A stretch of 64,000 bases of DNA. It comes from Candidatus Yanofskybacteria bacterium. GTDB lineage: Bacteria > Patescibacteriota > Minisyncoccia > JACQLN01. The DNA is taken from positions 1,290 to 65,289 of the forward strand of contig CALRHC010000002.1 in the NCBI GenBank assembly GCA_943359335.1, written 5' to 3'. Below, piece after piece: positions 7,670 to 55,762 of the stretch. The translations under genes were made by a program, and so were the position numbers. The notes below the pieces were generated by a model. The model was not told the DNA's origin. It did not search any database and saw only the letters and a list, made by a program, of their open reading frames with translations. How positions within the stretch are numbered: position 1 is the stretch's first letter; every line of letters begins with the position of its first letter.

Positions 7670-7769
7670 AATTCGCATTGGTTTGAGCGATTTCAAGGAG
7701 GTTCAATTTAAATATAAAGAGGGAGAATGTAAGTACCCCTCCTTGCAGGAGCGAAAACTGATGCGAATT
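7670..7769. repeat. intergenic repeat family F1 copy 1: conserved approx 65-nt core (GAGCGATTTCAAGGAGG...CCTCCTTGCAGGAGCGAAAA) closed by site-specific stem AATTCGCAT/ATGCGAATT
   Basis: 3 near-identical cores in window (also 11132-11216, 31345-31432); internal CAAGGAGG/CCTCCTTG hairpin; lies immediately 3' of leuS. Confidence 0.65.
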
Positions 7770-11131: not shown

Positions 11132-11216
11132 ATCATTTTGAGCGATTTCAAGGAGGTTCGATTTAATATAAAGAGGGAGGATGTAAGTGCTCCTCCTTGC
11201 AGGAGCGAAAAATGAT
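11132..11216. repeat. repeat family F1 copy 2 (core plus site-specific closing stem AATATCATTTT/AAAATGATATT), immediately 3' of metG
   Basis: core approx 95% identical to copy 1 with 1-nt indel (excludes coding). Confidence 0.65.
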
Positions 11217-22611: not shown

Positions 22612-22884
22612 CTAATCTCGGCCGTGTCCTCTGTTCCAAACAAAAGCGAAAACAAAGCCAACTACATAACCCATCAAAGCTGTAAACACTATAAGTTTAA
22701 CAGCTCGTGTGGCTATAAACGGAGAAACAACAAAAGGATTATTTAAAAAATGAATTCTGTAAATCATATCAAGCATTTTTTGCCCCAAACCCATAAAAAC
22801 CATAAGCGACCACATTGCATGCATCAAACCCACAAATAAACTTACAGTTAGAGCTGTTCTATTTTTATTTAATTTAACTGCCAT
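22612..22884 (-). CDS. small hypothetical membrane protein
   Basis: 90 aa, 3 TM. Confidence 0.4.
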   Translation of the reverse strand: MAVKLNKNRTALTVSLFVGLMHAMWSLMVFMGLGQKMLDMIYRIHFLNNPFVVSPFIATRAVKLIVFTALMGYVVGFVFAFVWNRGHGRD

Positions 22885-23015
22885 ATTTTTCTATGAATGA
22901 AATGAATAGTTAAAAATATGTGTCCGCCGTAGCTTTGCTTGATTCTTTATCAGTACCTGATAAATACGGGCGAAGGCGGGCCATACTCCTAAATATCTAT
23001 TTATTTAACGACCTT

Positions 23016-29605: not shown

Positions 29606-29964
29606 GGGGATGACTTGAATCGTCAAGGAACGTATCGATAAGAATTCGAAGCTGAGGTATACCACAAACTCATAAAACTGGTTACAAATAGTAAGTGCAA
29701 ACTTATTTAACGCTAAACCAGCGTTTGCCGTAGCTTAAAATCTATCGGCCATCGCCCTGTTTTTGCCCAAGAAGACAGTGTGCGGTGTTAACCTTTTGGG
29801 CTGCTGTCTAATGAAGGCGAACTTTAGACTTAAGACAATCGCCGAAAGTTTAACTTTTTTCACCATTCTTTAAGGGTTAAACTTAAACCAAGAATGGTTA
29901 GGCTTCGTAGCAGTTCAATCGAGAAATTTTTTGCACGCGGGTTCAATTCCCGCCATCTCCACCA
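29606..29964 (+). ncRNA. ssrA: tmRNA (transfer-messenger RNA)
   Basis: 5' GGGGATG pairs with CATCTCC-A-CCA 3'; T-arm GGTTCAATTCC; tag ORF GCA AAC TTA TTT AAC GCT AAA CCA GCG TTT GCC GTA GCT TAA (ANLFNAKPAFAVA) at 29697-29738. Confidence 0.9.
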
Positions 29965-31344: not shown

Positions 31345-31432
31345 TTTGCTGCTGAACGATTTCAAGGAGGTTCGTTTTATTTATAAAGAGGGAGGATGTA
31401 AGTGCCCCTCCTTGCAGGAGTGAAGTAGCAAA
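31345..31432. repeat. repeat family F1 copy 3 (core plus site-specific closing stem TTTGCT.../...AGCAAA), between polX stop and ogt start
   Basis: core approx 90% identical to copies 1 and 2. Confidence 0.65.
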
Positions 31433-31445
31433 CAAAAAACATTAA

Positions 31446-33176
31446 CTATTTATTTTTTAAAAAACCTAACATTTTTTCTACCGACCAAGCGTTTATAATA
31501 TCCGCCTTAGTCGCCCATGCTCTGCGTGCCTGCGCAATACCAAGTTCTAAATATTTAAAGTGGTCGGTATGATGTGCATCAGAATCTATAGATAATTTTA
31601 CTCCTGCCTCTAGAGCCATTCTTACATGTTCATCTTTTAAATCTAACCTATCGGCAAAAGCATCTATTTCTAAAACTGTGCCAGTTCTTTTGGCGGCTTT
31701 TATAATTTCTTCAATATCTATTTCGTAAGCTGGTCGTTTATTAATAATCCTGCCAGTGGGGTGAAAAAGAATATCTACATTAGGGTTTTCCATCGCCTTA
31801 ATTATTCTTTTTGTTTGTTCGGCTTTAGTTAAATTAAATAAAGAATGCACCGCCACACCCACTACATCCAATTTAGCTAAAGTTTTATCGTCTATATCTA
31901 ACGAACCATCTTTTAAAATATTTACTTCTGCACCCTTTAAAACACGAAACTTGTAACCTGAAGCTTGAAACTTTTTATTTATTTTTTCTATCTCCGCCAT
32001 CTGCTTTTCTAGTTTCTTTTCATCCGATCCACCCGTCATCGCCAAAGATTTTGTATGGTCGGTAATTAAAATATATTCCAAACCCATTTTCATAGCAGCT
32101 TCAGCCATTTCTTCTATAGAGTTTTCGCCATCTGTCCAAGTTGTTTGAATCTGTAAATCGCCTTTTAAATCAGCGTAATTAATTAGCTTAGGAAGTTTAT
32201 TTTTACCAGCGGCCTCAACCTCCCTGTTTAAGTTCCTAAGTTCGGGTTCAATGTATTCTAAACCTAATTTGTTATATATTTCTTCTTCTGTTTTTCCTGC
32301 TATTAATTTCTCACCCTTATACAAGCCGTATTCGTTTAACTTATAGCCTTTTTCTATCGCGATTTTTCTTAATTCTACGTTGTGGTTTTTATCTCCCGTA
32401 AAATATTGCGCCGCCGCACCAAAACTTTCCGGTGCCACCACACGTAAATCTATTTCCAAACCATTATTTAGTTTAATAACACTTTTAGTTTCACCTTTAG
32501 CTACTACCCTTCCAACTTCGGGCATTTTTATAAACATATCCATAACTTCTCTGGGGTTTTTAGAAGTTATTAAAATATCTACATCGCCTATAGTTTCTTG
32601 CATTCGACGCGTCGAACCACATAATAAAACTTTATCGGCATATTTGCTTTTTTCTAAACGAGAAACAATTTCTCTAATTTCGGGTAAAACAAAACCCAAA
32701 ACATAGCGCCCACTATGTTTTTTAACAAACTCTAAACCTTTTAAAATTTTCTCTTCCGATTTTTCACCAAAACCTTCTAAATTTTTAATTAAACCCGCCT
32801 TAGCCGCCTTTTCTAACTGAGCTAAATTTTTAATGCCTAATTTTTTATATAGTTTATAAACACCTTTAGGGCCAACTCCTTCCACACTGGTTAAACCCTC
32901 TACATCTACCGGAATTTTTTTCTTTAAAGCTAAGTGCTCTTTAATTTTTTTTGTTTTAATATATTCTTCTATCATTTCCGACATGCTTTTACCCACACCC
33001 TGAATTTCTTCTAGAGCTTTGGTACCACCTCTTTTGTATATGTCTTTTAAATCTTCGCCTAAGTTTTCTATATTTACCGCCGCGCGTTCAAAAGCCTGTG
33101 GTTTAAAAGCCACCTCTTGCATAGCAAACAATATGGAAATTTCCTTGAATATTTTGGTTATCTCTTGGTTTATCAT
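31446..33176 (-). CDS. polX: DNA polymerase X family with C-terminal PHP domain
   Basis: HhH motifs, GSTRRMQETIGDVDIL Pol-beta NT motif, PHP histidines. Confidence 0.9.
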   Translation of the reverse strand: MINQEITKIFKEISILFAMQEVAFKPQAFERAAVNIENLGEDLKDIYKRGGTKALEEIQGVGKSMSEMIEEYIKTKKIKEHLALKKKIPVDVEGLTSVEGVGPKGVYKLYKKLGIKNLAQLEKAAKAGLIKNLEGFGEKSEEKILKGLEFVKKHSGRYVLGFVLPEIREIVSRLEKSKYADKVLLCGSTRRMQETIGDVDILITSKNPREVMDMFIKMPEVGRVVAKGETKSVIKLNNGLEIDLRVVAPESFGAAAQYFTGDKNHNVELRKIAIEKGYKLNEYGLYKGEKLIAGKTEEEIYNKLGLEYIEPELRNLNREVEAAGKNKLPKLINYADLKGDLQIQTTWTDGENSIEEMAEAAMKMGLEYILITDHTKSLAMTGGSDEKKLEKQMAEIEKINKKFQASGYKFRVLKGAEVNILKDGSLDIDDKTLAKLDVVGVAVHSLFNLTKAEQTKRIIKAMENPNVDILFHPTGRIINKRPAYEIDIEEIIKAAKRTGTVLEIDAFADRLDLKDEHVRMALEAGVKLSIDSDAHHTDHFKYLELGIAQARRAWATKADIINAWSVEKMLGFLKNK

Positions 33177-33214
33177 TGTTTATATACTAGCAACTTTCAG
33201 TGCAAATAAAAAAG

Positions 33215-33235
33215 CCCGACGGATTTTACGTCGGG
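33215..33235 (-). terminator. hairpin CCCGACG-GATTTTA-CGTCGGG after small-protein operon
   Basis: T-runs both sides (AAATAAAAAAG / TTTTTT). Confidence 0.6.
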
Positions 33236-33244
33236 ACCAGTTTT

Positions 33245-33439
33245 TTAGGAAGCATGGTTTGCCACACTACACGGAAAAGGCGGGATCAAGAAAAAAGATA
33301 ATACAAAACATATTTTCCAGCCAACTGCCGCCAACATAATACATGTACATCCAGCAACAAACATAGATGGATATAACCAAATTCTGTTCTTCCGCAATAA
33401 TGTTTTCCCCTTATCCTTGATCTTTAAAAGGTCTTTCAT
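33245..33439 (-). CDS. small Cys-containing membrane protein P1 (64 aa; start MKDLLKIKD)
   Basis: GGAGGT SD 7 nt upstream; ATGA overlap with upstream ORF; terminator downstream. Confidence 0.5.
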   Translation of the reverse strand: MKDLLKIKDKGKTLLRKNRIWLYPSMFVAGCTCIMLAAVGWKICFVLSFFLIPPFPCSVANHAS

Positions 33440-33615
33440 GTAAAACCTCCGTTTTTTATGAGAGGACGAATCCAACTTAGAGCATACCTATCCACCAACC
33501 CGCAACCAATACAAATACACAAAAGAGTAAAAAGAAAGACTAAACTCAGACCCAAACAAAGGACCAGGGCAAGCGACACAAGTACCACAACCCCGATACT
33601 TTTTATAAATCCCAT
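33436..33615 (-). CDS. small hydrophobic Cys-rich peptide P2 (59 aa MGFIKSIGVVVLVSL...), not in ORF track
   Basis: ATG 3 nt after P3 stop; stop TGA overlaps ATG of P1 (ACATGA). Confidence 0.4.
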   Translation of the reverse strand: MGFIKSIGVVVLVSLALVLCLGLSLVFLFTLLCICIGCGLVDRYALSWIRPLIKNGGFT

Positions 33616-33618
33616 ATC

Positions 33619-33834
33619 TTACCCTTTCTCCTTTTTTTGTTTTCTAATCGCATTAACAATTCTGACTATTTTTTCTTTACCCTGCCAAAAACTTCCGGAC
33701 GGAGAAATAAGTCTTGGCGCCTCGCATTCAGAAGAAACTTCCCGTTGAACAAACCTATCGTAATTCAATACTTCCGGCACCCAACCATCTCTGGTTACTA
33801 ACTTCCAAGTACCAGGAAATTTTAACTTGTGCAT
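33619..33834 (-). CDS. small hydrophilic protein P3 (71 aa)
   Basis: GGGAG SD; 13-nt overlap with P4. Confidence 0.45.
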   Translation of the reverse strand: MHKLKFPGTWKLVTRDGWVPEVLNYDRFVQREVSSECEAPRLISPSGSFWQGKEKIVRIVNAIRKQKKEKG

Positions 33835-34013
33835 TTAGGCCTACTCCCTATTAAAATATAATTTCTTTTTTGGGCATACTCCTCCCACAAAAGAAGGTTA
33901 TGAAAATAATCCAAGACTTCAGGATCCAATTCTATTTTAGAGCCAAGAACTTCCTTTGAGTCTCCTGCTGTAGGAATATCTTTAGACTTATCCTTTTCTG
34001 AACACATAAACAC
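33822..34013 (-). CDS. small acidic protein P4 (63 aa)
   Basis: AAGGAGGG SD 7 nt upstream of ATG. Confidence 0.5.
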   Translation of the reverse strand: MFMCSEKDKSKDIPTAGDSKEVLGSKIELDPEVLDYFHNLLLWEEYAQKRNYILIGSRPKCTS

Positions 34014-34077
34014 CCTCCTTTTTTAAAGAACGTTTAAATAGTCTTATCAAGAAACTACCAAATATATAAAAGTAAGT

Positions 34078-34716
34078 CTACTGTACTATCTTTCTGTGAC
34101 GTTCGGGTATGGTTCTATCTTGGTATCGTTTTTTAGGATCAAGATGGCTAAGTAAACCCAGTAATAAAAATGCCGACAAAAGAGATATTGCGCTTGCCGA
34201 AAGAAACAGTGTAACAAAACCATATTTATCGGCAACGTAACCACCAACCGCCGTTGCTACAGAAGCGGCGAGGCCGACCGAAAAAACACTATCCAAACTC
34301 CATTCAAAACTTATTCTCCATTTATCTACGTGGCGTGTAAAAATGGAATACCAAGCTGGTACCGCCCACGCCATTATAAAACCATAAAAACCCTGCACAA
34401 TGTATAAATGTACTGGCTTTGTAACAAAAATATAAGCAATAGGAATAAGTGAGCTTAAAAAATAACCCAAAAATAGTGCCCAAAAATCATCGCGTTCGCC
34501 GTCGGTTTTATCTAAAAAGCGTGCAATTGGCAATTGAAAAATAGATTTAACTATCCAGTAAATTGAGGCGGCAAAACCAGCAACTTTAGCTGAACCACCT
34601 TGTATTTGATTTGTTAAAAAAATTGCAAACACCGGACCAAAAGAAGCAAAAGCAGAATTATAAAAAAAATCTGCTGCAACAATAACTTTTATAATACGAT
34701 TTACACCTGTAAACAT
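34078..34716 (-). CDS. 6-TM MFS-half-like membrane protein
   Basis: GGYVADKYG MFS loop motif, 212 aa. Confidence 0.55.
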   Translation of the reverse strand: MFTGVNRIIKVIVAADFFYNSAFASFGPVFAIFLTNQIQGGSAKVAGFAASIYWIVKSIFQLPIARFLDKTDGERDDFWALFLGYFLSSLIPIAYIFVTKPVHLYIVQGFYGFIMAWAVPAWYSIFTRHVDKWRISFEWSLDSVFSVGLAASVATAVGGYVADKYGFVTLFLSASAISLLSAFLLLGLLSHLDPKKRYQDRTIPERHRKIVQ

Positions 34717-34763
34717 GCCAATTTTATTTATGAACGAAGTGAGTAATTATAAATATTGAGCAC
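34717..34763 (-). promoter_or_regulatory. conserved 47-nt 5' leader/promoter motif (family F3 copy A) immediately upstream of start codon; contains TATAAT
   Basis: approx 87% identical to 52916-52962 upstream of MazG-like gene. Confidence 0.5.
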
Positions 34764-34852
34764 CCCAACGTAAGGTCGGGGTAAGATTTGATATATAAGA
34801 AATAATCACTTCATTTTAGTTCTTATACTATGTCCTTACAGTATAACAAAAA

Positions 34853-34873
34853 ATCCCGCTTAATAGTCGGGAT
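34853..34873 (-). terminator. hairpin ATCCCG-N9-CGGGAT after S8 peptidase gene
   Basis: minus-strand T-run TTTTTTGTT. Confidence 0.6.
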
Positions 34874-34901
34874 AAGTTATGCGTCTAATTTATTTAATTT
34901 A

Positions 34902-36209
34902 TTAAGGCAATAACGAAGACGTAGAAACTTCTACTTTGGCTTTCGGTAATACTATAATTCCAAATCCTGTAGCATTGTCATCGCCTACTAAACCAACATC
35001 CTGGCTTAATTTTTCTAAATTAACCAATGTGCTTGTAGCCGAACCATTCCAGGTTTTAGCAGCAACACCAGAAACAAAAGCTGCAGACATAGAAGTTCCG
35101 GAAAGGAACCTATAACCACCATCAGCCCAAGTTGATTCTACGTTTACACCTGGAGCAATAAAAATAATTTCTCTTTCTTCTTTAATAAAGTCGCCATCAT
35201 TTACCCCTCTACTAGACCACGTAGCTACGGTTTTATCTTCGGCTAGTGCTCCCACAGAAACAGTATTTTTATATGCAGATGGCCAATCTATAGAAGCCTT
35301 ATCCGGGCCATCATTGCCAGCGCCAGTAATAATTAAAACATTTTTAGCAAAAGCAGAATCAATCGAATTTTTTAAAATAGAAGCTTCGTTATTTCCTCCT
35401 AAACCAATAAAGGCTATATCGGCTTTGCCTGCACCAGCGGCATAATCTAAAGCAGTGGCCACATCGTCAGCCCAACATGTTCCATCATTCCTACAAACTT
35501 TGTAAACCAATAAGTTAGCTTCACTGGCCACACCCCAAATACCCTTCGCATCAAAACCTCCGTTACCTGAAATTATTCCGGCAACATGAGTGCCGTGACC
35601 ATTTTTATCTTCACAAGTAGAGCGGGCTATAGGACCACGTGTAAAATCTTTACAGTCTTTTATATTATCTACTAAATCTGAATGAGCAGCATTAACACCA
35701 GTGTCTAAAACAGCCACGTTAACATTCTTACCTCCAGATGTAGAGATTATAGAATCATCGCCATATACAGAAACAACCCCCCAAGAAATTGGGTTTGCAG
35801 GTAAAATATTTCTATCTTTTATCTTTTGAGTATCTTTTTGCAAAGAAGCAACTGTTTCAGAAACAACTCCAACAACATTAGCCGAAACAGTTTCAACAAC
35901 ACCTACTCCATTAATCTTATACAAAGGCACAGGAGAAACATTAACTTTAAATATTTTCTCTAGTGTCCAAACCTCACCAGTAGTTAAATCGGCGGTAAAG
36001 CCATAATCAAATTCATGCTGAACACCAAATAGAGACTTTATAAAGTAACTTTTGGTTGAAATTAAATATCGGCCACTCTCTAAATTAGCATTTTTAGAAG
36101 CAGCCAAGACCATATTCGAGGAAACCAGAAAAACAGCTAGAAAAGCTGTTAAAACAAGAAAAAACCTAAGTTGTGGTTTTTTATACATTAAAAGCAGATT
36201 GTTCGTCAA
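34902..36209 (-). CDS. secreted subtilisin-like serine peptidase (S8 family)
   Basis: signal peptide; VLDTGV (Asp), HGTHVAGII (His), GTSMSAAFVSG (Ser). Confidence 0.9.
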   Translation of the reverse strand: MTNNLLLMYKKPQLRFFLVLTAFLAVFLVSSNMVLAASKNANLESGRYLISTKSYFIKSLFGVQHEFDYGFTADLTTGEVWTLEKIFKVNVSPVPLYKINGVGVVETVSANVVGVVSETVASLQKDTQKIKDRNILPANPISWGVVSVYGDDSIISTSGGKNVNVAVLDTGVNAAHSDLVDNIKDCKDFTRGPIARSTCEDKNGHGTHVAGIISGNGGFDAKGIWGVASEANLLVYKVCRNDGTCWADDVATALDYAAGAGKADIAFIGLGGNNEASILKNSIDSAFAKNVLIITGAGNDGPDKASIDWPSAYKNTVSVGALAEDKTVATWSSRGVNDGDFIKEEREIIFIAPGVNVESTWADGGYRFLSGTSMSAAFVSGVAAKTWNGSATSTLVNLEKLSQDVGLVGDDNATGFGIIVLPKAKVEVSTSSLLP

Positions 36210-43617: not shown

Positions 43618-44163
43618 CTAATTACTTCTAATTTTCTTATATCCCAACCAAATAAGAATTGCGAGCGCAACACCCAAAACAATAAAACGTAAGTAATCGT
43701 TCATATCGGACCAATAACGAATAGTGCCAACAATAAGCGACAGAAGTCCTCCACCCAAAAAGCCATTGGCTACTGGCGCAGCGCTGATAACTAAAAAACC
43801 AAGGCCAAGCGAAATAAGGCCTAAAATAACAAGGGCTATAAATACATTGCGGTTATAAACATCGCGTGCGGATTCATAACTTTCGCGGCACTTAGCCGTA
43901 GAATCGCACCAACTCGTCTCGCCTGTTTGAGGTTGAGGCTTCATGGGTACTATCTGCCCATCGTAATTAACTTGATTACTTTCGTACCACTTTCCACCCA
44001 CCGCTTCGCACGAAGCTTTTTCGGTATAAACTTTTTGAGTTAACTCGACCGAACAAAAGTTTTCAAACTTAGGTTCCGGATAAAAAGTAAAAACCCCGTA
44101 ATTAAAAAACAAATTGAGCACTATTACTATGGCCAAAGCCAAAATTATTTCTTTTATTTTCAT
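43618..44163 (-). CDS. hypothetical membrane protein with Cys-rich extracytoplasmic segment
   Basis: 181 aa. Confidence 0.5.
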   Translation of the reverse strand: MKIKEIILALAIVIVLNLFFNYGVFTFYPEPKFENFCSVELTQKVYTEKASCEAVGGKWYESNQVNYDGQIVPMKPQPQTGETSWCDSTAKCRESYESARDVYNRNVFIALVILGLISLGLGFLVISAAPVANGFLGGGLLSLIVGTIRYWSDMNDYLRFIVLGVALAILIWLGYKKIRSN

Positions 44164-44165
44164 AT

Positions 44166-44753
44166 TTATTTAAACAACCTAAAAGAGTTATAAATTTTAT
44201 TTAAAATATCATTATCATCTTCACTATAGAAAATAAGGATTTTACCATCGCCGAGCCAAACATACATTTCATAAACATTACCTATCATTCCTTCGAAATT
44301 TCTGCGATGCAAAATAACCATGGCCTCGCCTAGTTTTTTTACCACAAAGGTGGAATAAAATTTTTCACCAATTACATTGTTTCCACCAAGATTAAAATAT
44401 AAACTCCTTAAGTTATTTTCATATTCGGCTAAGGATTTAAATTTAACATCTTGATAATATGCCTTGATTCCAGAAGCTTCATAATATCCATCCTTTTTAA
44501 AAAAACCAACAATCGCCACACCATCAGGATTTTCTTCTGCGCTATAATATTCCGGATATTTTATCTCAAACCCATACTTTTCATTTCTATAAGTTTTCCA
44601 ATTCGCGGTTTCGTCTGCGACTTTTTGATTTGCATTTGAATTTTCCGCTGGAGCATAAGCTGGTTTTTTAGAGAGATAAAAATACCCGCCACCGAGTAGT
44701 AAAATTCCTAGTGCGATGATAACAACATCTTTTATAAATCCTTTTTGGTTCAT
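44166..44753 (-). CDS. secreted/anchored protein, paralog A (shares N-terminal approx 70 aa with 45310..45819)
   Basis: MNQKGFIKDVVIIALGILLLGGGYFY... approx 80% nt identity over first 200 nt with paralog B. Confidence 0.55.
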   Translation of the reverse strand: MNQKGFIKDVVIIALGILLLGGGYFYLSKKPAYAPAENSNANQKVADETANWKTYRNEKYGFEIKYPEYYSAEENPDGVAIVGFFKKDGYYEASGIKAYYQDVKFKSLAEYENNLRSLYFNLGGNNVIGEKFYSTFVVKKLGEAMVILHRRNFEGMIGNVYEMYVWLGDGKILIFYSEDDNDILNKIYNSFRLFK

Positions 44754-44754
44754 G

Positions 44755-44976
44755 TTATTTTAATAACTTCTCAAATTCAGACGGGGATAATTCGGCGTCT
44801 CGTAAAATTTTTCTTAACAGACCATGACCAATAATTTTATGATCTGGTATGGTTACTGATTTTCTACCTGGGCAAAACAATCGCATATGACTACCGCGCT
44901 GACGAACTTGCCTGTAACCAATTCTGCTAAGAGTTTTTGTTAATTCCTTACCTGAAAATAAAGGCAGGCGAGTCAT
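44755..44976 (-). CDS. hicA: HicA family toxin (mRNA interferase)
   Basis: YcfA/HicA signature ...RQRGSHMRL...VTIPDHK. Confidence 0.8.
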   Translation of the reverse strand: MTRLPLFSGKELTKTLSRIGYRQVRQRGSHMRLFCPGRKSVTIPDHKIIGHGLLRKILRDAELSPSEFEKLLK

Positions 44977-44981
44977 ATATA

Positions 44982-45233
44982 CTAGAAAGACATTGTATAT
45001 AAACTTAATTCTTTAGAACGATAGGCTTTAAGCAAATCTTTATTTCCTTTGTCTTCTATAATTAGCTCAATAACTTCGCGTATGTTTTTTAAAGCCTCGT
45101 TTTTTGTTTTACCTTGACTGTAACATCCTTCAAAAACAGGACATTCCACCACATAAAAACCGTCCTCGTCTTTTTCTACAAGCAAGGGCAGTTTAGAGCC
45201 TAATCGTTTGGTTTTAGTACTAACCTTTGACAT
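44982..45233 (-). CDS. hicB: HicB-like antitoxin (UPF0150)
   Basis: DGFYVVECPVFEGCYSQGKTKNEALKNIREVIELII. Confidence 0.75.
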   Translation of the reverse strand: MSKVSTKTKRLGSKLPLLVEKDEDGFYVVECPVFEGCYSQGKTKNEALKNIREVIELIIEDKGNKDLLKAYRSKELSLYTMSF

Positions 45234-45309
45234 ATTGATTTTACCTTAGCTTATTTTGAGACCTTTGCCAATTATTCTTTAATCACCGCTAAAGCCAAAA
45301 TTATTTATT

Positions 45310-45819
45310 TTATTTTGTGAATTTGAAGGTTGATAAAACCTTGTTACAAAAATCCAAAATATCTAATCCACCATAATCTACACAATTGGCATAAACTTTC
45401 CGATTATCTTTATAAAAATAAATTGGATTCTCGCCGTCTATATTATTATTTTTAGTAAATAAAACAGTTTTCACTGATACGATTTGATATCTACTATCCG
45501 CCACATTACTTATCGTTAATCTTGCTGGCTCGTAACCTCCCGCCAATAAATCATAACTCACATCTACCTGAAAATCGGCGGCATTTTGAAAAAAAGACTG
45601 ATCAATAACGTCTGAACTTTTTGGGTATCTGAATTCAATTTCATATTTTTCATTTCTATAAGTCTTCCAATCTTTAGTTTCATCGGCAATTTGATTTTGA
45701 TTCGTATTTTCCGCTGGAGCATAGGCTGGGTTTTTGGAAAAATAAAAATACCCACCGCCTAGCAGTAGAATCGCTAGTACAATAATGACAATGTCTTTAA
45801 TAAAACCTTTTTGGTTCAT
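45310..45819 (-). CDS. secreted/anchored protein, paralog B
   Basis: MNQKGFIKDIVIIVLAILLLGGGYFY... Confidence 0.55.
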   Translation of the reverse strand: MNQKGFIKDIVIIVLAILLLGGGYFYFSKNPAYAPAENTNQNQIADETKDWKTYRNEKYEIEFRYPKSSDVIDQSFFQNAADFQVDVSYDLLAGGYEPARLTISNVADSRYQIVSVKTVLFTKNNNIDGENPIYFYKDNRKVYANCVDYGGLDILDFCNKVLSTFKFTK

Positions 45820-52585: not shown

Positions 52586-52915
52586 TTATCTATTGTCTCC
52601 GCTACCGTGAATTTTATCTTTTTTAAACCTAGACGATAATTTTTCTATGTTTGCTTTTGCAATATCTTCTAGAGAAAATTTTAGCTCACCTGCCATTTGC
52701 GATATGTACCACAAAACATCGCCTAGTTCTTTTTTTATATCCTCCCTCTTTTCTTTGGTAATAATACCTTTATCATCTCTTAAAATTTTCTTTACCTTGT
52801 TAGCAACTTCTCCGGCTTCACCCACCAAACCCAGCGTTGGGTAAATAATATTTTTTCCAATATTAGGATAAGCTGCAGTTTTCTTAGCTTTATTTTGATA
52901 TTCTTTAAAATCCAT
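52586..52915 (-). CDS. MazG-like nucleotide pyrophosphohydrolase (ATG at 52915; track uses upstream TTG 52945)
   Basis: GEAGEVANKVKK...LGDVLWYISQMA MazG EExxE/D motifs. Confidence 0.75.
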   Translation of the reverse strand: MDFKEYQNKAKKTAAYPNIGKNIIYPTLGLVGEAGEVANKVKKILRDDKGIITKEKREDIKKELGDVLWYISQMAGELKFSLEDIAKANIEKLSSRFKKDKIHGSGDNR

Positions 52916-52962
52916 GCCAATTTTATTTGCGAACAAAGTGAGCAATTATTAAAATTGAGCAC
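52916..52962 (-). promoter_or_regulatory. conserved 47-nt 5' leader/promoter motif (family F3 copy B)
   Basis: approx 87% identical to 34717-34763. Confidence 0.5.
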
Positions 52963-53560: not shown

Positions 53561-55762
53561 TTATTTTAGATCACCCCAATTTTTACCAACCTCTACTTCA
53601 GCTACTATTGGCACACCGATATCGGCAACGTTTTCCATAATATTTTTTACAATCTTTGAATATTTTTCTGCAACTTCTTCCTTAACTTCAAAAACCAATT
53701 CATCGTGAACTTGTAAAATCATTTTTATATCTTTTTTGGAACCTAATTCTTTTTCTATTTCTACCATCGCTGCTTTAACAATATCTCCTGTAGCCGTTCC
53801 TTGTATGGGCATATTTACAGCTTCTCTTTCGGCTGCCGCTCGCATCATTGGGTTAGGTGAATTTAAATCTACAAAACGTTTTCTACCCCATAAAGTTTCA
53901 ACATAACCCTGCGAACGAGCCTTGTTTTTTATATCGCGAATAAATTTAGCCAAACCCGAAAAACCAGCTTCGTAACCACGAATAAATTCTTGGGCCTCAC
54001 TTAATGTTACACCGGCTGATTGACTAAAAGCTCTTGGGCCCATGCCATAAAGCACGCCGAAGTTTAATGTTTTAGCTTCACGGCGCATGTCTTTTGTAAC
54101 TTTATCTAGCGGAACATTAAAAACTTCAGCTGCGGTTCTAGTATGAATATCTTCGCCTTTTTTAAAAGTGTCTATCATTTTTTCGTCGCCCGACATCGCC
54201 GCCGCTACACGAAGCTCTATTTGAGAATAGTCTGCCGCCAAAATCAGCCAACCATCTGGAGCAGTAAATGCTCGCCTAATTTCTAAACCATATTCACCTT
54301 TGGTTGGAATATTTTGTAAGTTTGGATTTTCCGAAGATAATCTACCTGTAACTGCGCCCAACTGTTTAAATGTTGTATGCAATCTACCGTCTGTACCAAC
54401 TAATCTTGGTAAGGCATCAACATATGTAGATTTTAATTTTGAAAGTTCGCGCCAACGCAAAATCAAAGGGAAAATTGGATGAGAATCTTTTAATTTATCT
54501 AGCTGATCAAATGCAGTAGAATATGCCCCGCTCTTTTTTGTTTTTTTAATTTTAGCTCCACCTAAATTTAGCTTTTCAAAAAGTATTCGGCCAAGTTCTT
54601 GAGTGGAATTTATATTAAATTCTTCTCCGGCAAATTCTATTATTTTATTTTTAATTTCAGCTAGTTCTTTTTCGAACTTTTCGCTTAAATTTTTTAACAG
54701 CTTAACGTCTAATAAAATACCTGTTTTTTCCATCTTTCTTAACACCGGCCGTACATCTTTTTCTAGTTTGTATATTTTTTCCGAAAAAATTCCTTTTTTA
54801 TAATATTCGTCTAGTTCGTCACCAATTAATTGAGCCTGCTCTGGAATTGATTCCTGTTCAGCCTCTATGCCCTTAAGATCATTAAGACGATTAATCAAAC
54901 TTTTAAAACCAAATCTAAAAAAAAGTTTTTTAATTTCTTCGTTTTCTACCAAATTAAAAGCGGTTTTTATAAAATCTAAATCAACCGGAACATCTCTTTT
55001 TATGGTTGCCAATCTTTTACTTAAAAATGCATCATCTTTGTTTACCGAAAGTTTTTCGAATAACTTAACACTTTTAACTTTAATCTTTTCTAAATTTTTA
55101 TATATATTTTCTAAACTGCCATATTCATTTAATAAATTAATAGCTGTTTTTTCGCCAATACCAAGCACGCCCGGGATATTGTCGGAAGCATCGCCTTTTA
55201 AGCCTTTAAGATCTGTTATTTGGCTTGGCCCCAAACCTTCGTATCTTTCACGAACAAGGACTTCGTTATATATAACGGTATCGTTTACGCCTTTTTTAAG
55301 CGTATAAACCAAAATATTTTCGTCGTCTATTAATTGTAAACAATCTAAATCACCCGTAACTATTATTTTTGTAAGTTCTTTTTTATTTTTTAATTTTTCT
55401 ACAACCGTGCCGATAATATCGTCAGCCTCAAAACTTTGAAGTTGTAAGACCGGAATTTTAAAAGCTTCTACAAGTTCCTTAACCAAAGAAAATTGATTAA
55501 TTAACGCATCATCTGTTGCAGGCCTATGGGCCTTATATTCTTTGTATTCTTTTTCCCGAAAAGTTGGGCCGGCCATATCAAACGCCGCCACAATATATTG
55601 TGGTTTTAATTCTTTAATAACGCGCATCAACACGCTGGCGAAACCATAAACAGCCTGCACTTGCCTACCATCTGGCGCAGTTAAAATTGGCAAAGCGTGA
55701 TAAGCGCGGTGGATTAAAGCATGACTGTCGATAATTACTAATTTTTCTTTTTCGTTTTTCAT
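53561..55762 (-). CDS. polA: DNA polymerase I (5'-3' exonuclease plus polymerase; short)
   Basis: 733 aa, 5' nuclease N-terminus, polymerase motifs A/B/C incl. QVHDELVFEV. Confidence 0.9.
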   Translation of the reverse strand: MKNEKEKLVIIDSHALIHRAYHALPILTAPDGRQVQAVYGFASVLMRVIKELKPQYIVAAFDMAGPTFREKEYKEYKAHRPATDDALINQFSLVKELVEAFKIPVLQLQSFEADDIIGTVVEKLKNKKELTKIIVTGDLDCLQLIDDENILVYTLKKGVNDTVIYNEVLVRERYEGLGPSQITDLKGLKGDASDNIPGVLGIGEKTAINLLNEYGSLENIYKNLEKIKVKSVKLFEKLSVNKDDAFLSKRLATIKRDVPVDLDFIKTAFNLVENEEIKKLFFRFGFKSLINRLNDLKGIEAEQESIPEQAQLIGDELDEYYKKGIFSEKIYKLEKDVRPVLRKMEKTGILLDVKLLKNLSEKFEKELAEIKNKIIEFAGEEFNINSTQELGRILFEKLNLGGAKIKKTKKSGAYSTAFDQLDKLKDSHPIFPLILRWRELSKLKSTYVDALPRLVGTDGRLHTTFKQLGAVTGRLSSENPNLQNIPTKGEYGLEIRRAFTAPDGWLILAADYSQIELRVAAAMSGDEKMIDTFKKGEDIHTRTAAEVFNVPLDKVTKDMRREAKTLNFGVLYGMGPRAFSQSAGVTLSEAQEFIRGYEAGFSGLAKFIRDIKNKARSQGYVETLWGRKRFVDLNSPNPMMRAAAEREAVNMPIQGTATGDIVKAAMVEIEKELGSKKDIKMILQVHDELVFEVKEEVAEKYSKIVKNIMENVADIGVPIVAEVEVGKNWGDLK

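What the first reader, a model, noticed from the sequence alone, without database searches (positions are those of the whole stretch)
33245..36209. Translationally coupled four-gene operon of 59-71 aa proteins next to S8 protease and 6-TM MFS-like protein
On the minus strand: S8 subtilisin-like secreted protease, then a terminator. Next is the 6-TM MFS-half-like protein, which carries the unusual conserved F3 leader. Then come four tightly packed small genes: P4 (63 aa, acidic), P3 (71 aa), P2 (59 aa, not in ORF track, LCLGLSLVFLFTLLCICIGCGLV) and P1 (64 aa, AGCTCIMLAAVGWKICF). Strong SDs precede P4 and P1, there is a 13-nt overlap P4/P3, a 3-nt gap P3/P2 and an ATGA overlap P2/P1, and a terminator follows. 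Two hydrophilic plus two Cys-rich hydrophobic peptides beside a protease and a transporter resemble bacteriocin/immunity or membrane toxin-antitoxin arrangements, but match none I can name.
Basis: partly seen in the sequence, partly recalled or inferred. Interest (0 to 1): 0.55.

Follow-up and report, generated by a model that had tools for sequence, protein, structure and literature searches.

The report
Orphan four-gene small-protein cassette operon
Four tiny, tightly overlapping genes (two soluble, two membrane proteins) are real and conserved, but they are lineage-specific cargo in a fast-changing gene-cassette spot wedged between a half-size transporter gene and a DNA repair polymerase gene in a few groundwater ultra-small bacteria, and their function is unknown.

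Summary
On the minus strand P4 (34007-33822), P3 (33834-33619), P2 (33615-33436) and P1 (33439-33245) have the stated 13-nt overlap, 3-nt gap and ATGA overlap, and a terminator follows. All four are real genes: pN/pS is 0.39-0.48 in the annotated frame and 0.8-1.5 in the other frames.

P4-P3 recurs with the same 13-nt overlap in four other Patescibacteria contigs, two of them carrying all four genes. The families are tiny. A search of 5.8 billion proteins returned 5 P3, about 8 P1 and 4 P2 relatives. None matches Pfam, PHROGs, PADLOC or a known fold.

The context changes the interpretation. In 22 of 26 relatives that lack S8, the half-MFS gene abuts PolX (gap 2-72 bp). Only the window's S8-bearing clade has a 0.6-3.8 kb variable insert there. 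The insert is a mosaic of shuffled small-gene cassettes, with HicAB toxin-antitoxin pairs in three genomes. Many cassettes start with a shared 18-nt element, GTTCTTT(T)AAAAAAGGAG.

S8 is a separate transcription unit, and nothing supports a bacteriocin system. My best guess, and it is weak, is a toxin-antitoxin-like accessory module that acts on the membrane.

The parts
34014..34031 (-). Cassette 5' element GTTCTTTAAAAAAGGAGG (an SD with an A-rich tract) directly before P4
   Evidence: Near-identical elements precede 13 distinct cassette starts in the variable regions of relatives. These are P4 (five times), P3-like, P2, H72, a Zn-ribbon gene, A75-like, and 91-aa, 62-aa and acidic 77-aa genes. 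There is no other strong match in the window or in the fetched loci; the window has one 2-mismatch match at 54154 and L021 has one shortened match.
33822..34007 (-). P4: 61 aa, acidic (pI 5.2), soluble. It has a variable charged N-terminus and a conserved core, SKIELDxEVLDYFHNLLLWEE. The last codons overlap the start of P3.
   Evidence: Orthologues in L008, L051, L053 and L054 all overlap P3 by 13 nt. pN/pS is 0.44 in frame and 0.90/1.05 out of frame. The single-sequence AF2 model shows one helix at 29-49 with pLDDT 63. No family hit.
33619..33834 (-). P3: 71 aa, basic (pI 10.0), soluble. The invariant motif is PRLISPSGSFW. The predicted fold is four beta-strands plus a C-terminal helix.
   Evidence: Only 5 relatives in 5.8e9 proteins, plus one remote relative, P0139, found in 1.84e9 representatives. 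AF2 pLDDT 79. No Foldseek match better than E = 0.24. pN/pS 0.39.
33436..33615 (-). P2: 59 aa membrane peptide. It has an N-terminal TM segment followed by the near-invariant juxtamembrane motif (C)xGWGLIRGYALNWIRP-like. The window allele carries a 15-aa insertion that partly duplicates the TM segment; L052 has the same insertion.
   Evidence: The HMM matches twice within the window protein. Relatives are found in L008, L051, L052, L053, L055, L001-4, L009 and L056-58. pN/pS 0.48.
33245..33439 (-). P1: 64 aa, with a Lys/Arg-rich N-terminus followed by a two-TM hairpin. The ATGA overlap couples it to P2.
   Evidence: Relatives are found in L008 (in frame with P2 as one 96-aa ORF), L051, L052, L001, L006 and P0129-P0132/P0137. 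Hydropathy. pN/pS 0.48.
33215..33235 (-). Intrinsic terminator that closes the small-gene operon
   Evidence: 7-bp stem with 6 GC pairs, followed by a T-run. The equivalent position is conserved in L052, L008 and L051.
34078..34716 (-). Upstream flank (context, not cargo): 212-aa six-TM half-MFS protein. No terminator separates it from P4.
   Evidence: Pfam MFS_1 profile positions 6-192 of 347. 321 hits, and the 120 listed are 167-225 aa long, most about 210. dN/dS 0.03.
34717..34834 (-). About 115-nt 'F3 leader' insertion between the ancestral leaderless promoter and the half-MFS ATG
   Evidence: It is absent from L008, L001, L055, L005, L006 and L010, where the ATG directly follows GTTATACTATAAGA. 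Its 3' 50 nt is repeated at 52913-52962 and 22877-22926.
31446..33176 (-). Downstream flank (context): PolX-family DNA polymerase, the ancestral immediate neighbour of the half-MFS gene
   Evidence: The gap between the half-MFS stop and the PolX start is 2-72 bp in 22 of 26 S8-less loci. It is 901 bp in the window.
34902..36188 (-). Secreted S8 subtilase, a separate transcription unit (context only)
   Evidence: Pfam PF00082 at 2.5e-41. Promoter-like site at 36238-36209. Hairpin plus T-run at about 34872-34848.

Best explanation
**Shown.**
- P4, P3, P2 and P1 are four real, translationally coupled genes.
- They form a lineage-restricted accessory module. It is carried in a hypervariable islet of small-gene cassettes.
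- In one narrow clade of groundwater Patescibacteria, that islet has been wedged into the otherwise contiguous half-MFS -> PolX gene pair.
- Units in the islet are gained, lost, swapped and re-ordered between close relatives. A unit is an ORF or ORF pair, usually with its own terminator.
- Many units begin with the same 18-nt element, GTTCTTT(T)AAAAAAGGAG.

**Inferred.**
- P2 (N-out, single TM) and P1 (N-in, two-TM hairpin) work together as a small three-helix membrane complex. They are adjacent and coupled in the window, L051 and L052. In L008 they read as one in-frame ORF.
- P4 (acidic, mostly disordered plus one helix) and P3 (basic, small beta-sheet plus helix) form a cytoplasmic pair. A fixed 13-nt overlap couples their synthesis.

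**Most likely function (about 0.3 on its own).** A self-contained addiction or defence-type module. The membrane pair would be the effector that perturbs the membrane. The soluble pair would be its regulator or neutraliser. The module may be co-transcribed with the half-MFS gene.

It is not a bacteriocin system. It is not functionally tied to the S8 protease.
For: **Coding and conservation.**
- pN/pS is 0.39-0.48 in frame and 0.8-1.5 out of frame.
- Pairwise dN/dS is mostly 0.1-0.5.
- Gene order and the 13-nt P4/P3 overlap are the same in L008, L051, L053 and L054.

**Hotspot.**
- All 16 S8+ loci have 596-3843 bp between the half-MFS and PolX genes.
- 22 of 26 S8- loci have only 2-72 bp there.

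**Mosaic content**.
- Window, L008 and L051: P4-P3-P2-P1.
- L053: P4-P3-P2-H87.
- L001: P2-H87-P1 / CC60-H72.
- L003, L057 and L058: the same as L001 but with A75 in place of P1.
- L055: P3like-P2-H72 / CC70-acidic77.
- L006: CC87-P1.

**Cassette behaviour.**
- The P1-to-A75 swap between near-identical strains is precise. It runs from the ATG to just before the next unit.
- The shared 5' element occurs at 13 cassette starts, with no other strong match in the sequence searched.

**Toxin-antitoxin context.**
- The same hotspot holds bona fide TA cargo. HicB (2e-10) and HicA (2e-16) were scored for L010. The same pairs were read in L017 and L021.

**Protein properties.**
- P2 and P1 form a single ORF in L008.
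- Charge and hydropathy fit the topology proposed above.
- The small genes evolve much faster than their flanks. Window versus L008: P4 56%, P3 69%, P2 44% and P1 62% amino-acid identity. The flanks are MFS 96%, PolX 88% and S8 89%. dS is similar for both sets.
Against: **Against a strict toxin/antitoxin dependence.**
- No homology or fold link to any toxin, antitoxin, holin or defence family.
- The parts occur in incomplete sets. P3-like occurs without P4 (L055). P2+P1 occur without P4/P3 (L001). P2 occurs without P1 (L003, L055). P1 occurs alone (L006).

**Weak points in the supporting evidence.**
- The P2-P1 fusion rests on one MAG and lies next to a 7-T homopolymer.
- The structure models are shallow: a 5-sequence alignment for P3 and a single sequence for P4.
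- No expression data are available.

**Confound.** The link between the islet and S8 presence cannot be separated from shared ancestry, because all S8+ loci belong to one clade.
Confidence: 0.45

Rival explanations
1. P2, perhaps with P1, is a small-protein accessory subunit or regulator of the half-MFS transporter, in the way AcrZ, KdpF or MgtS act on their transporters. P4/P3 would be unrelated soluble cargo.
For: - P2 is the most widely retained cassette, and it sits just downstream of the half-MFS gene on the same strand. It is the first gene after it in L001 and comes after P4-P3 or P3-like elsewhere.
- No terminator lies between the MFS stop and the first small gene.
- P2's cytoplasmic juxtamembrane motif GWGLIRGYAxNW is invariant in 5 sequences although the rest of the protein drifts. 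That points to a conserved partner.
- The half-MFS is 95-96% identical in the genomes that have P2 and a full-length MFS hit.
Against: - Dozens of genomes keep the half-MFS, at 51-83% identity, with no P2 or P1 and with PolX 2-72 bp downstream.
- The nearest sister genomes (80-85% MFS identity) lack P2.
- P2 evolves far faster than the MFS protein (dN about 0.3 against 0.02).
Confidence: 0.2
2. The genes are fast-evolving factors for the cell envelope or host interaction of an episymbiotic ultra-small bacterium. The islet would be a contingency locus that diversifies small membrane and soluble proteins, with no toxin-like activity.
For: - Amino-acid divergence is high next to slow flanks.
- Strains in one aquifer carry different cassettes. 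L001 and L003 differ this way, and window versus L052 shows 82-99% mosaic identity.
- A secreted S8 protease is always the next transcription unit but one upstream in the clade that has the islet.
Against: - pN/pS stays below 0.5, so selection is purifying rather than diversifying.
- P3 and P4 have no signal peptide or TM segment.
- P1 and P2 expose only a few residues outside the membrane.
Confidence: 0.15
3. One reading: a bacteriocin or RiPP-like peptide system. P1/P2 would be precursor or immunity peptides, S8 the processing protease and the half-MFS the exporter.
For: - The hydrophobic peptides contain Cys residues.
- An S8 protease and a transporter-like protein lie next to them.
- S8 presence and the islet co-occur.
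Against: - There is no double-glycine or Sec leader.
- No ABC/C39 exporter and no LanB/C/M-type or other modification enzyme lies within about 6 kb.
- S8 has its own promoter and terminator.
- The half-MFS is a housekeeping-like gene paired with PolX across the phylum.
- The Cys positions are mostly not conserved. The window P2 Cys-rich stretch is an allele-specific insertion, and it has already changed in L052 (ICIGCG to ILVGYG).
Confidence: 0.05
4. It is a remnant of a phage lysis or holin-like cassette, or other prophage debris.
For: - The fused P2-P1 would have a 3-TM, N-out/C-in topology like class I holins. This is an inference.
- The genes are small and overlapping.
Against: - No relatives of P3 or of P2/P1 were found in 2.9 million viral contigs.
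- No significant PHROG hit.
- No endolysin, integrase or other phage gene was seen in the neighbourhood.
- The 18-nt element gives only 9 exact viral hits, which I judge close to chance.
Confidence: 0.05

Closest known systems
Type II toxin-antitoxin modules (e.g. HicAB) as cargo of variable chromosomal islets
   Same: - Two small co-directional genes with overlapping stop and start: an acidic upstream product and a basic downstream product (P4/P3).
- Patchy distribution and residence in a hotspot.
- The same hotspot carries real HicB-HicA pairs in L010, L017 and L021.
   Different: - No sequence or fold relationship to any known toxin or antitoxin.
- P3-like exists without P4 in L055.
- The unit has four genes, including two membrane proteins.
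Small hydrophobic membrane toxins (type I TA toxins such as TisB, Hok, Fst) and holins
   Same: - Membrane peptides of 45-64 aa with one or two TM segments and charged termini.
- In the window they are possibly co-expressed with stress and DNA-repair genes.
   Different: - They have strong SDs and are translationally coupled inside a protein-coding operon.
- No antisense RNA is evident.
- No homology to these families.
- Toxicity is untested.
Chromosomal integron cassette arrays
   Same: - An array of same-strand small orphan ORFs with TA cassettes interspersed.
- A short conserved sequence recurs at cassette boundaries.
- Cassettes are replaced precisely between strains.
   Different: - No integrase within about 6 kb.
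- The shared element is an 18-nt ribosome-binding region at the 5' end of the ORFs. It is not an attC inverted repeat.
- The swap is compatible with plain homologous recombination through the flanking genes.
Small-protein regulators of transporters (AcrZ, KdpF, MgtS)
   Same: A single-TM peptide of under 60 aa encoded next to, and probably co-transcribed with, a transporter gene.
   Different: The transporter family is far more widespread than the peptide. No interaction has been shown.
Class II bacteriocin / immunity operons
   Same: Several small peptides, some hydrophobic, lie near a protease and a transporter-like gene.
   Different: - No leader peptide, no dedicated ABC exporter and no family match.
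- The protease and the 'transporter' are conserved neighbours that exist independently of the peptides.

Membership tests
Class II bacteriocin/immunity operon | Precursor peptide with a double-glycine or Sec-type leader | tested here: not met
   Read from the sequences. P1 starts with a Lys-rich cytoplasmic-type segment. P2 starts MGFIKSIG and runs straight into a TM segment. Neither has an LSxxELxxIxGG-type leader. P3 and P4 are hydrophilic with no signal peptide.
Class II bacteriocin/immunity operon | Dedicated ABC exporter with a C39 peptidase (or accessory protein) in the cluster | tested here: not met
   The neighbours within about 6 kb are RNase J-like, an amino-acid permease, UDG, S8, the half-MFS, PolX and an MGMT-like protein.
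Lanthipeptide/RiPP cluster with an S8 (LanP-like) protease | Modification enzymes adjacent, and protease in the same unit as the precursors | tested here: not met
   No such Pfam families appear in the called genes of L001-L007. S8 has its own promoter-like site and a hairpin plus T-run before the half-MFS gene.
Type II toxin-antitoxin module (P4/P3) | Adjacent, co-directional, translationally coupled small gene pair | tested here: met
   13-nt overlap in the window, L008, L051, L053 and L054. pI 5.2 against 10.0.
Type II toxin-antitoxin module (P4/P3) | The partners always occur together | tested here: not met
   L055 has a P3-like gene 73 nt after the half-MFS gene with no P4.
Type II toxin-antitoxin module (P4/P3) | Toxin or antitoxin belongs to a known superfamily by sequence or fold | tested here: not met
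   No hits in Pfam, PHROGs or PADLOC. PDB sequence search best E = 0.6. Foldseek against PDB and BFVD best E = 0.24 and 0.55.
Type II toxin-antitoxin module (P4/P3) | Toxin arrests growth and the antitoxin neutralises it | not testable with these tools
   This needs expression experiments.
Type I small membrane toxins (Hok/TisB/Fst-like) | Short single-TM toxin controlled by an overlapping antisense or cis-encoded RNA | tested here: inconclusive
   P2 homologues are 43-59 aa with one TM segment. They have an SD and are coupled to the neighbouring ORFs. The scan found no promoter-like site on the opposite strand within 33245-34013. No RNA search beyond Rfam was made.
Integron cassette array | IntI tyrosine recombinase with attI next to the array | tested here: not met
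   No recombinase among the called genes within about 6 kb in L001-L007 and L055. The rest of the window was not scanned for one.
Integron cassette array | attC imperfect inverted repeats at cassette 3' ends | tested here: not met
   The recurring boundary sequence is the 18-nt GTTCTTT(T)AAAAAAGGAG directly before start codons. Its upstream flanks are not conserved. Cassette 3' ends are ordinary terminator hairpins.
Integron cassette array | Same-strand array of small orphan ORFs with TA cassettes and strain-to-strain cassette replacement | tested here: met
Major facilitator superfamily (the flanking 212-aa protein) | Significant match to the MFS_1 profile | tested here: met
   59.6 bits against a cut-off of 33.4, E = 3.3e-16.
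Major facilitator superfamily (the flanking 212-aa protein) | Two six-helix domains in one 12-TM polypeptide | tested here: not met
   Only profile positions 6-192 of 347 are covered. The 120 listed homologues are 167-225 aa, most about 210. There is no second MFS-like ORF in the window. Function as a homodimer is an inference.
Small-protein transporter regulators (AcrZ/KdpF-like) | The peptide consistently co-occurs with, and binds, its transporter | tested here: inconclusive
   Where both genes lie on the same contig, P2 is next to the half-MFS gene. Most half-MFS genes have no P2 nearby. Binding is not testable here.

The most novel reading that the evidence does not exclude
The half-MFS/PolX junction in this Patescibacteria clade is an integrase-independent gene-cassette array. 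Small ORF units carrying a common 18-nt 5' 'adaptor' (GTTCTTTTAAAAAAGGAG) would be captured and shuffled there. P4-P3-P2-P1 would be a previously unknown four-component toxin-antitoxin or abortive-infection-type system that targets the membrane and is specific to ultra-small bacteria.
Probability: 0.15. Interest if true: 0.7.

Novelty: new variant of a known kind. Interest (0 to 1): 0.4.

Why it matters
Patescibacteria genomes are tiny and streamlined, and they are often said to lack classical accessory and defence cargo.

**What this locus shows.**
- A precisely bounded hotspot lies inside a phylum-wide conserved gene pair, the half-MFS and PolX genes.
- There, a narrow clade accumulates and exchanges orphan small-protein genes and HicAB modules, even between strains of one aquifer.
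- The four-gene unit adds four protein families with almost no relatives in billions of sequences. All four are under clear purifying selection.

**What would follow if the hypotheses hold.**
- If the membrane pair is a toxin or effector, this would be a compact new system from organisms that cannot be cultured.
- If the shared 18-nt element mediates cassette capture, it would be a new way of building cassette arrays.

**If neither holds.** The result is still useful negative knowledge. The S8 protease and the 'transporter' are bystanders, and this is not a bacteriocin cluster.

Tried and rejected
**1. The small ORFs as frameshifted remains of the missing C-terminal half of an MFS gene. Rejected.**
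- The listed homologues of the 212-aa protein are 167-225 aa long, most about 210.
- The small ORFs have their own orthologues and frame-specific purifying selection.

**2. Family searches for P1-P4. Nothing found.**
- Pfam, PHROGs and PADLOC gave nothing better than E = 0.03.

**3. Exhaustive HMMER search with a P3 profile.**
- It found only P3's own cluster and one real remote relative, P0139.
- Two long proteins (P0138, P0140) matched through low-complexity repeats. I rejected them as spurious.

**4. Fold searches with the P3 model.**
- Only non-significant thioredoxin/GST-N-like topology matches appeared (E >= 0.24).
- P3 has a single conserved Cys and no CxxC motif, so I do not call it a thioredoxin-fold protein.

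**5. Searches of other collections.**
- Viral contigs: no P3 or P2/P1 relatives.
- The 18-nt element gives 9 exact viral hits, which I judge close to chance.
- JGI metagenome scan with P3: nothing.
- Metagenome scan with P2: only more copies of the L001-type allele, plus one doubtful high-GC hit, L059.

**6. Exact look-ups.** Look-ups of the window's own P3 (by sequence and as P0121) failed, so the source contig was not identified.

**7. Literature.** No paper describes this locus. PMC12455944 gives only general context on genomic islands in groundwater Patescibacteria.

**8. P4 relatives.** One search returned none, although P4 orthologues are called genes in L051, L053 and L054. P4 conservation therefore rests on my own alignments.

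Full report
**1. The observation**

All features lie on the minus strand.

| Feature | Coordinates | Notes |
|---|---|---|
| S8 subtilase | 36188/36209-34902 | Pfam PF00082, 2.5e-41 |
| Hairpin plus T-run | about 34872-34848 | Read from the sequence |
| Half-MFS, 212 aa | 34716-34078 | Matches only MFS_1 profile positions 6-192 of 347 |
| P4, 61 aa | 34007-33822 | Preceded by AAGGAGG |
| P3, 71 aa | 33834-33619 | Overlaps P4 by 13 nt |
| P2, 59 aa | 33615-33436 | 3-nt gap after P3 |
| P1, 64 aa | 33439-33245 | ATGA overlap with P2 |
| Terminator | 33235-33215 | |
| PolX | 33176-31446 | |

**2. Are the small ORFs genes?**

Yes. Orthologues were recovered from other Patescibacteria assemblies.
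- L008 is JAUYOU010000022 and L051 is a Logan contig.
- L053 and L054 are short contigs that end inside the unit.
- L052 is a strain-level relative from the Hainich aquifer.

Selection is frame-specific. Summed over pairs, pN/pS in the annotated frame is 0.44 (P4), 0.39 (P3), 0.48 (P2) and 0.48 (P1). In the two other frames it is 0.80-1.52. Fisher tests for excess synonymous change give p between 1e-2 and 4e-9.

Gene order and the 13-nt P4/P3 overlap are the same in all four other contigs that carry P4-P3.

**3. What the proteins look like**

- **P4** is acidic (pI 5.2). Its N-terminus is variable and charged, and its core, SKIELDxEVLDYFHNLLLWEE, is conserved. The single-sequence AF2 model has one helix at 29-49, pLDDT 63.
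- **P3** is basic (pI 10.0) and has the invariant motif PRLISPSGSFW. AF2 with a 5-sequence alignment gives four strands plus a C-terminal helix, pLDDT 79.
- **P2** has one TM segment followed by a nearly invariant amphipathic motif, GWGLIRGYALNWIRP. The window allele, like L052, carries a 15-aa insertion that partly duplicates the TM segment. It has already changed in L052 (ICIGCG to ILVGYG).
- **P1** has a Lys/Arg-rich N-terminus and a two-TM hairpin.
- In L008, P2 and P1 form a single in-frame 96-aa ORF that keeps the internal SD and a GTG. The topologies are compatible: the P2 C-terminus and the P1 N-terminus are both cytoplasmic by the positive-inside rule. I infer that they act together. 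The fusion rests on one MAG and lies next to a T7 run.

**4. How rare they are**

- Against 5.8 billion clustered proteins, the P3 family has 5 members, P1 about 8 and P2 4. No P4 relative was returned.
- An exhaustive HMMER search of 1.84 billion representatives with the P3 profile added one true remote relative (P0139, E = 5e-11). It also gave two spurious hits to low-complexity repeat proteins.
- No hits in Pfam, PHROGs or PADLOC.
- No PDB sequence match below E = 0.6.
- No Foldseek match below E = 0.24 in PDB or BFVD. Only non-significant thioredoxin/GST-N-like topology appeared.
- No relatives in 2.9 million viral contigs.

**5. The context changes the reading**

The half-MFS is a real, strongly conserved family. 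It gave 321 hits, and the 120 listed are 167-225 aa long, most about 210. Its dN/dS is 0.03.

I measured the distance from the half-MFS stop to the PolX start across 42 loci.

| Loci | Number | Gap |
|---|---|---|
| Without S8 upstream | 22 of 26 | 2-72 bp |
| Without S8 upstream | 2 of 26 | 127 and 160 bp |
| Without S8 upstream | 2 of 26 | 1155 and 2140 bp |
| With S8 upstream | 16 of 16 (the window's clade) | 596-3843 bp |
| Window | 1 | 901 bp |

The small genes therefore occupy an insertion between two ancestrally adjacent genes.

**6. The insert is a mosaic**

Contents of the insert:
- **Window, L008 and L051:** P4-P3-P2-P1. L008 and L051 then carry further units: a Zn-ribbon gene, a 174-aa Cys-rich gene, and an 80-aa or 62-aa gene.
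- **L053:** P4-P3-P2-H87, then the contig ends.
- **L001, L002, L004, L009 and L056:** P2-H87-P1, terminator, CC60-H72.
- **L003, L057 and L058:** the same as L001, with an acidic 75-aa protein (A75) in place of P1.
- **L055:** P3-like (no P4)-P2-H72, terminator, CC70-acidic77.
- **L006:** CC87-P1.
- **L010, L017 and L021:** they carry HicB-HicA pairs. The L010 pair scored HicB PF15919 2e-10 and HicA PF07927 2e-16.

The L001/L003 difference is a clean replacement. It runs from the start codon to just before the next unit's promoter, between otherwise near-identical flanks.

Window versus L052 shows patchy identity of 82-99%.

**7. A shared cassette start**

The sequence (A/T)GTTCTTT(T)AAAAA(A)GGAG directly precedes 13 distinct cassette starts. 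These are P4 in five genomes, P3-like, P2, H72, the Zn-ribbon gene, A75-like, and the 91-aa, 62-aa and acidic 77-aa genes.

In the 64-kb window it matches only at P4, plus one 2-mismatch match at 54154. It has no other strong match in the fetched loci. The sequence upstream of the element is not conserved between different cassettes.

I read it as a common translation-initiation 'adaptor'. Whether it also serves as a recombination patch is speculation.

**8. Relation to S8 and the half-MFS**

- S8 has a near-consensus promoter-like site (11 of 12 positions) and its own hairpin plus T-run.
- In relatives, the half-MFS ATG follows GTTATACTATAAGA directly after that hairpin. That suggests a leaderless transcript, which is my inference.
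- No terminator lies between the half-MFS gene and P4, so co-transcription is plausible but not shown.
- S8 presence and the islet coincide perfectly. All S8+ loci form one clade, so this cannot be separated from shared descent.

**9. Mechanism**

*Shown:*
- The module is a real, coupled, conserved operon and it is lineage-restricted.
- It sits in a cassette hotspot that also carries TA modules.

*Inferred:*
- P2+P1 form a small membrane complex, and P4+P3 form a soluble acid/base pair.

*Most likely function (about 0.3):* an addiction or defence-type module in which the membrane proteins are the effector and the soluble pair regulates them.

*Main counter-evidence:* the parts occur in incomplete sets, and there is no homology to any known system.

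*Best rival (0.2):* P2 is an accessory peptide of the half-MFS.

The bacteriocin/RiPP reading is essentially excluded. There is no leader, exporter or modification enzyme, and the protease is a separate unit.

**10. Verdict**

The finding is real and correctly described. The interpretation needs re-centring. The feature of interest is an orphan four-gene module inside a variable small-gene islet at the half-MFS/PolX junction. It is not a protease-transporter-peptide system.

The novelty lies in the families and in the integron-like but integrase-less organisation of the islet. Function remains untested.

Noticed in passing
window 34717-34834 (-); copies at 52913-52962 (-) and 22877-22926 (-): The 'F3 leader' is a conserved sequence of about 50 nt that runs straight into the ATG with no SD: GTGCTCAATATTTATAATTACTCACTTCGTTCATAAATAAAATTGGC. 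It heads three units: the half-MFS gene (ancestrally paired with PolX), a MazG-like gene followed by Fpg/MutM, and, more weakly, a 90-aa membrane protein followed by MsrA/MsrB. All three concern DNA repair or oxidative damage, so it may be a shared stress-regulon promoter or operator. At the half-MFS gene it is part of an insertion of about 115 nt that is absent from six relatives.
   Followed up: partly
window 7684-7755, 11138-11209, 31353-31424; also L010 in the S8/half-MFS spacer: A dispersed 72-nt intergenic repeat (71-89% identity). It contains a long hairpin, CAAGGAGG...CCTCCTTG, that would sequester an SD-like sequence. It is conserved across genomes and has no Rfam match. It could be a MITE-like element or a structured RNA.
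   Followed up: no
window 34078-34716 (-) and L001-L050: The 212-aa protein is a naturally half-size (six-TM) MFS protein under very strong constraint (dN/dS 0.03; many invariant residues, including TRHVDxWRxSFEWS). It is widespread in Patescibacteria and almost always lies immediately upstream of PolX, often followed by an MGMT-like gene. An obligate half-MFS linked to a DNA-repair operon is unusual and unexplained.
   Followed up: partly
window 44761-45215 (-), within repeats at 44132-45819: A HicA-like (37% identity) and HicB-like (39%) pair lies elsewhere in the window. It sits inside a roughly 1.07-kb tandem duplication (repeat families D2, D5 and D20), which may be a second variable TA locus.
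   Followed up: no
L001 7109-7330 versus L003 7109-7390; also L056 versus L057/L058: Strains from the same aquifer differ by a clean swap: a two-TM membrane protein gene (P1-like) is replaced by an unrelated acidic 75-aa protein gene. Each version brings its own terminator, and the flanks are near-identical.
   Followed up: yes
window 33177-33214 (-); L005 and L006 upstream of PolX: In genomes with the insert, PolX has acquired a conserved TTGCTA...TATA(T/G)A promoter-like sequence that ends 4-6 nt before the start codon, which suggests a leaderless transcript. In genomes without the insert, PolX follows the half-MFS stop within 2-72 bp, and no SD was evident in the spacers I read.
   Followed up: no
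L059 (Ga0070741_10159833) 108-185: A high-GC metagenome contig encodes VVWGLIGVAFNWMRPLVAGGG. This resembles the P2 juxtamembrane motif (59% identity over 27 aa). It could be chance or a distant relative outside Patescibacteria.
   Followed up: no
window 29606-29964 (+): A tmRNA gene (Rfam RF00023, 106.8 bits). SmpB lies near the same region in relatives.
   Followed up: no
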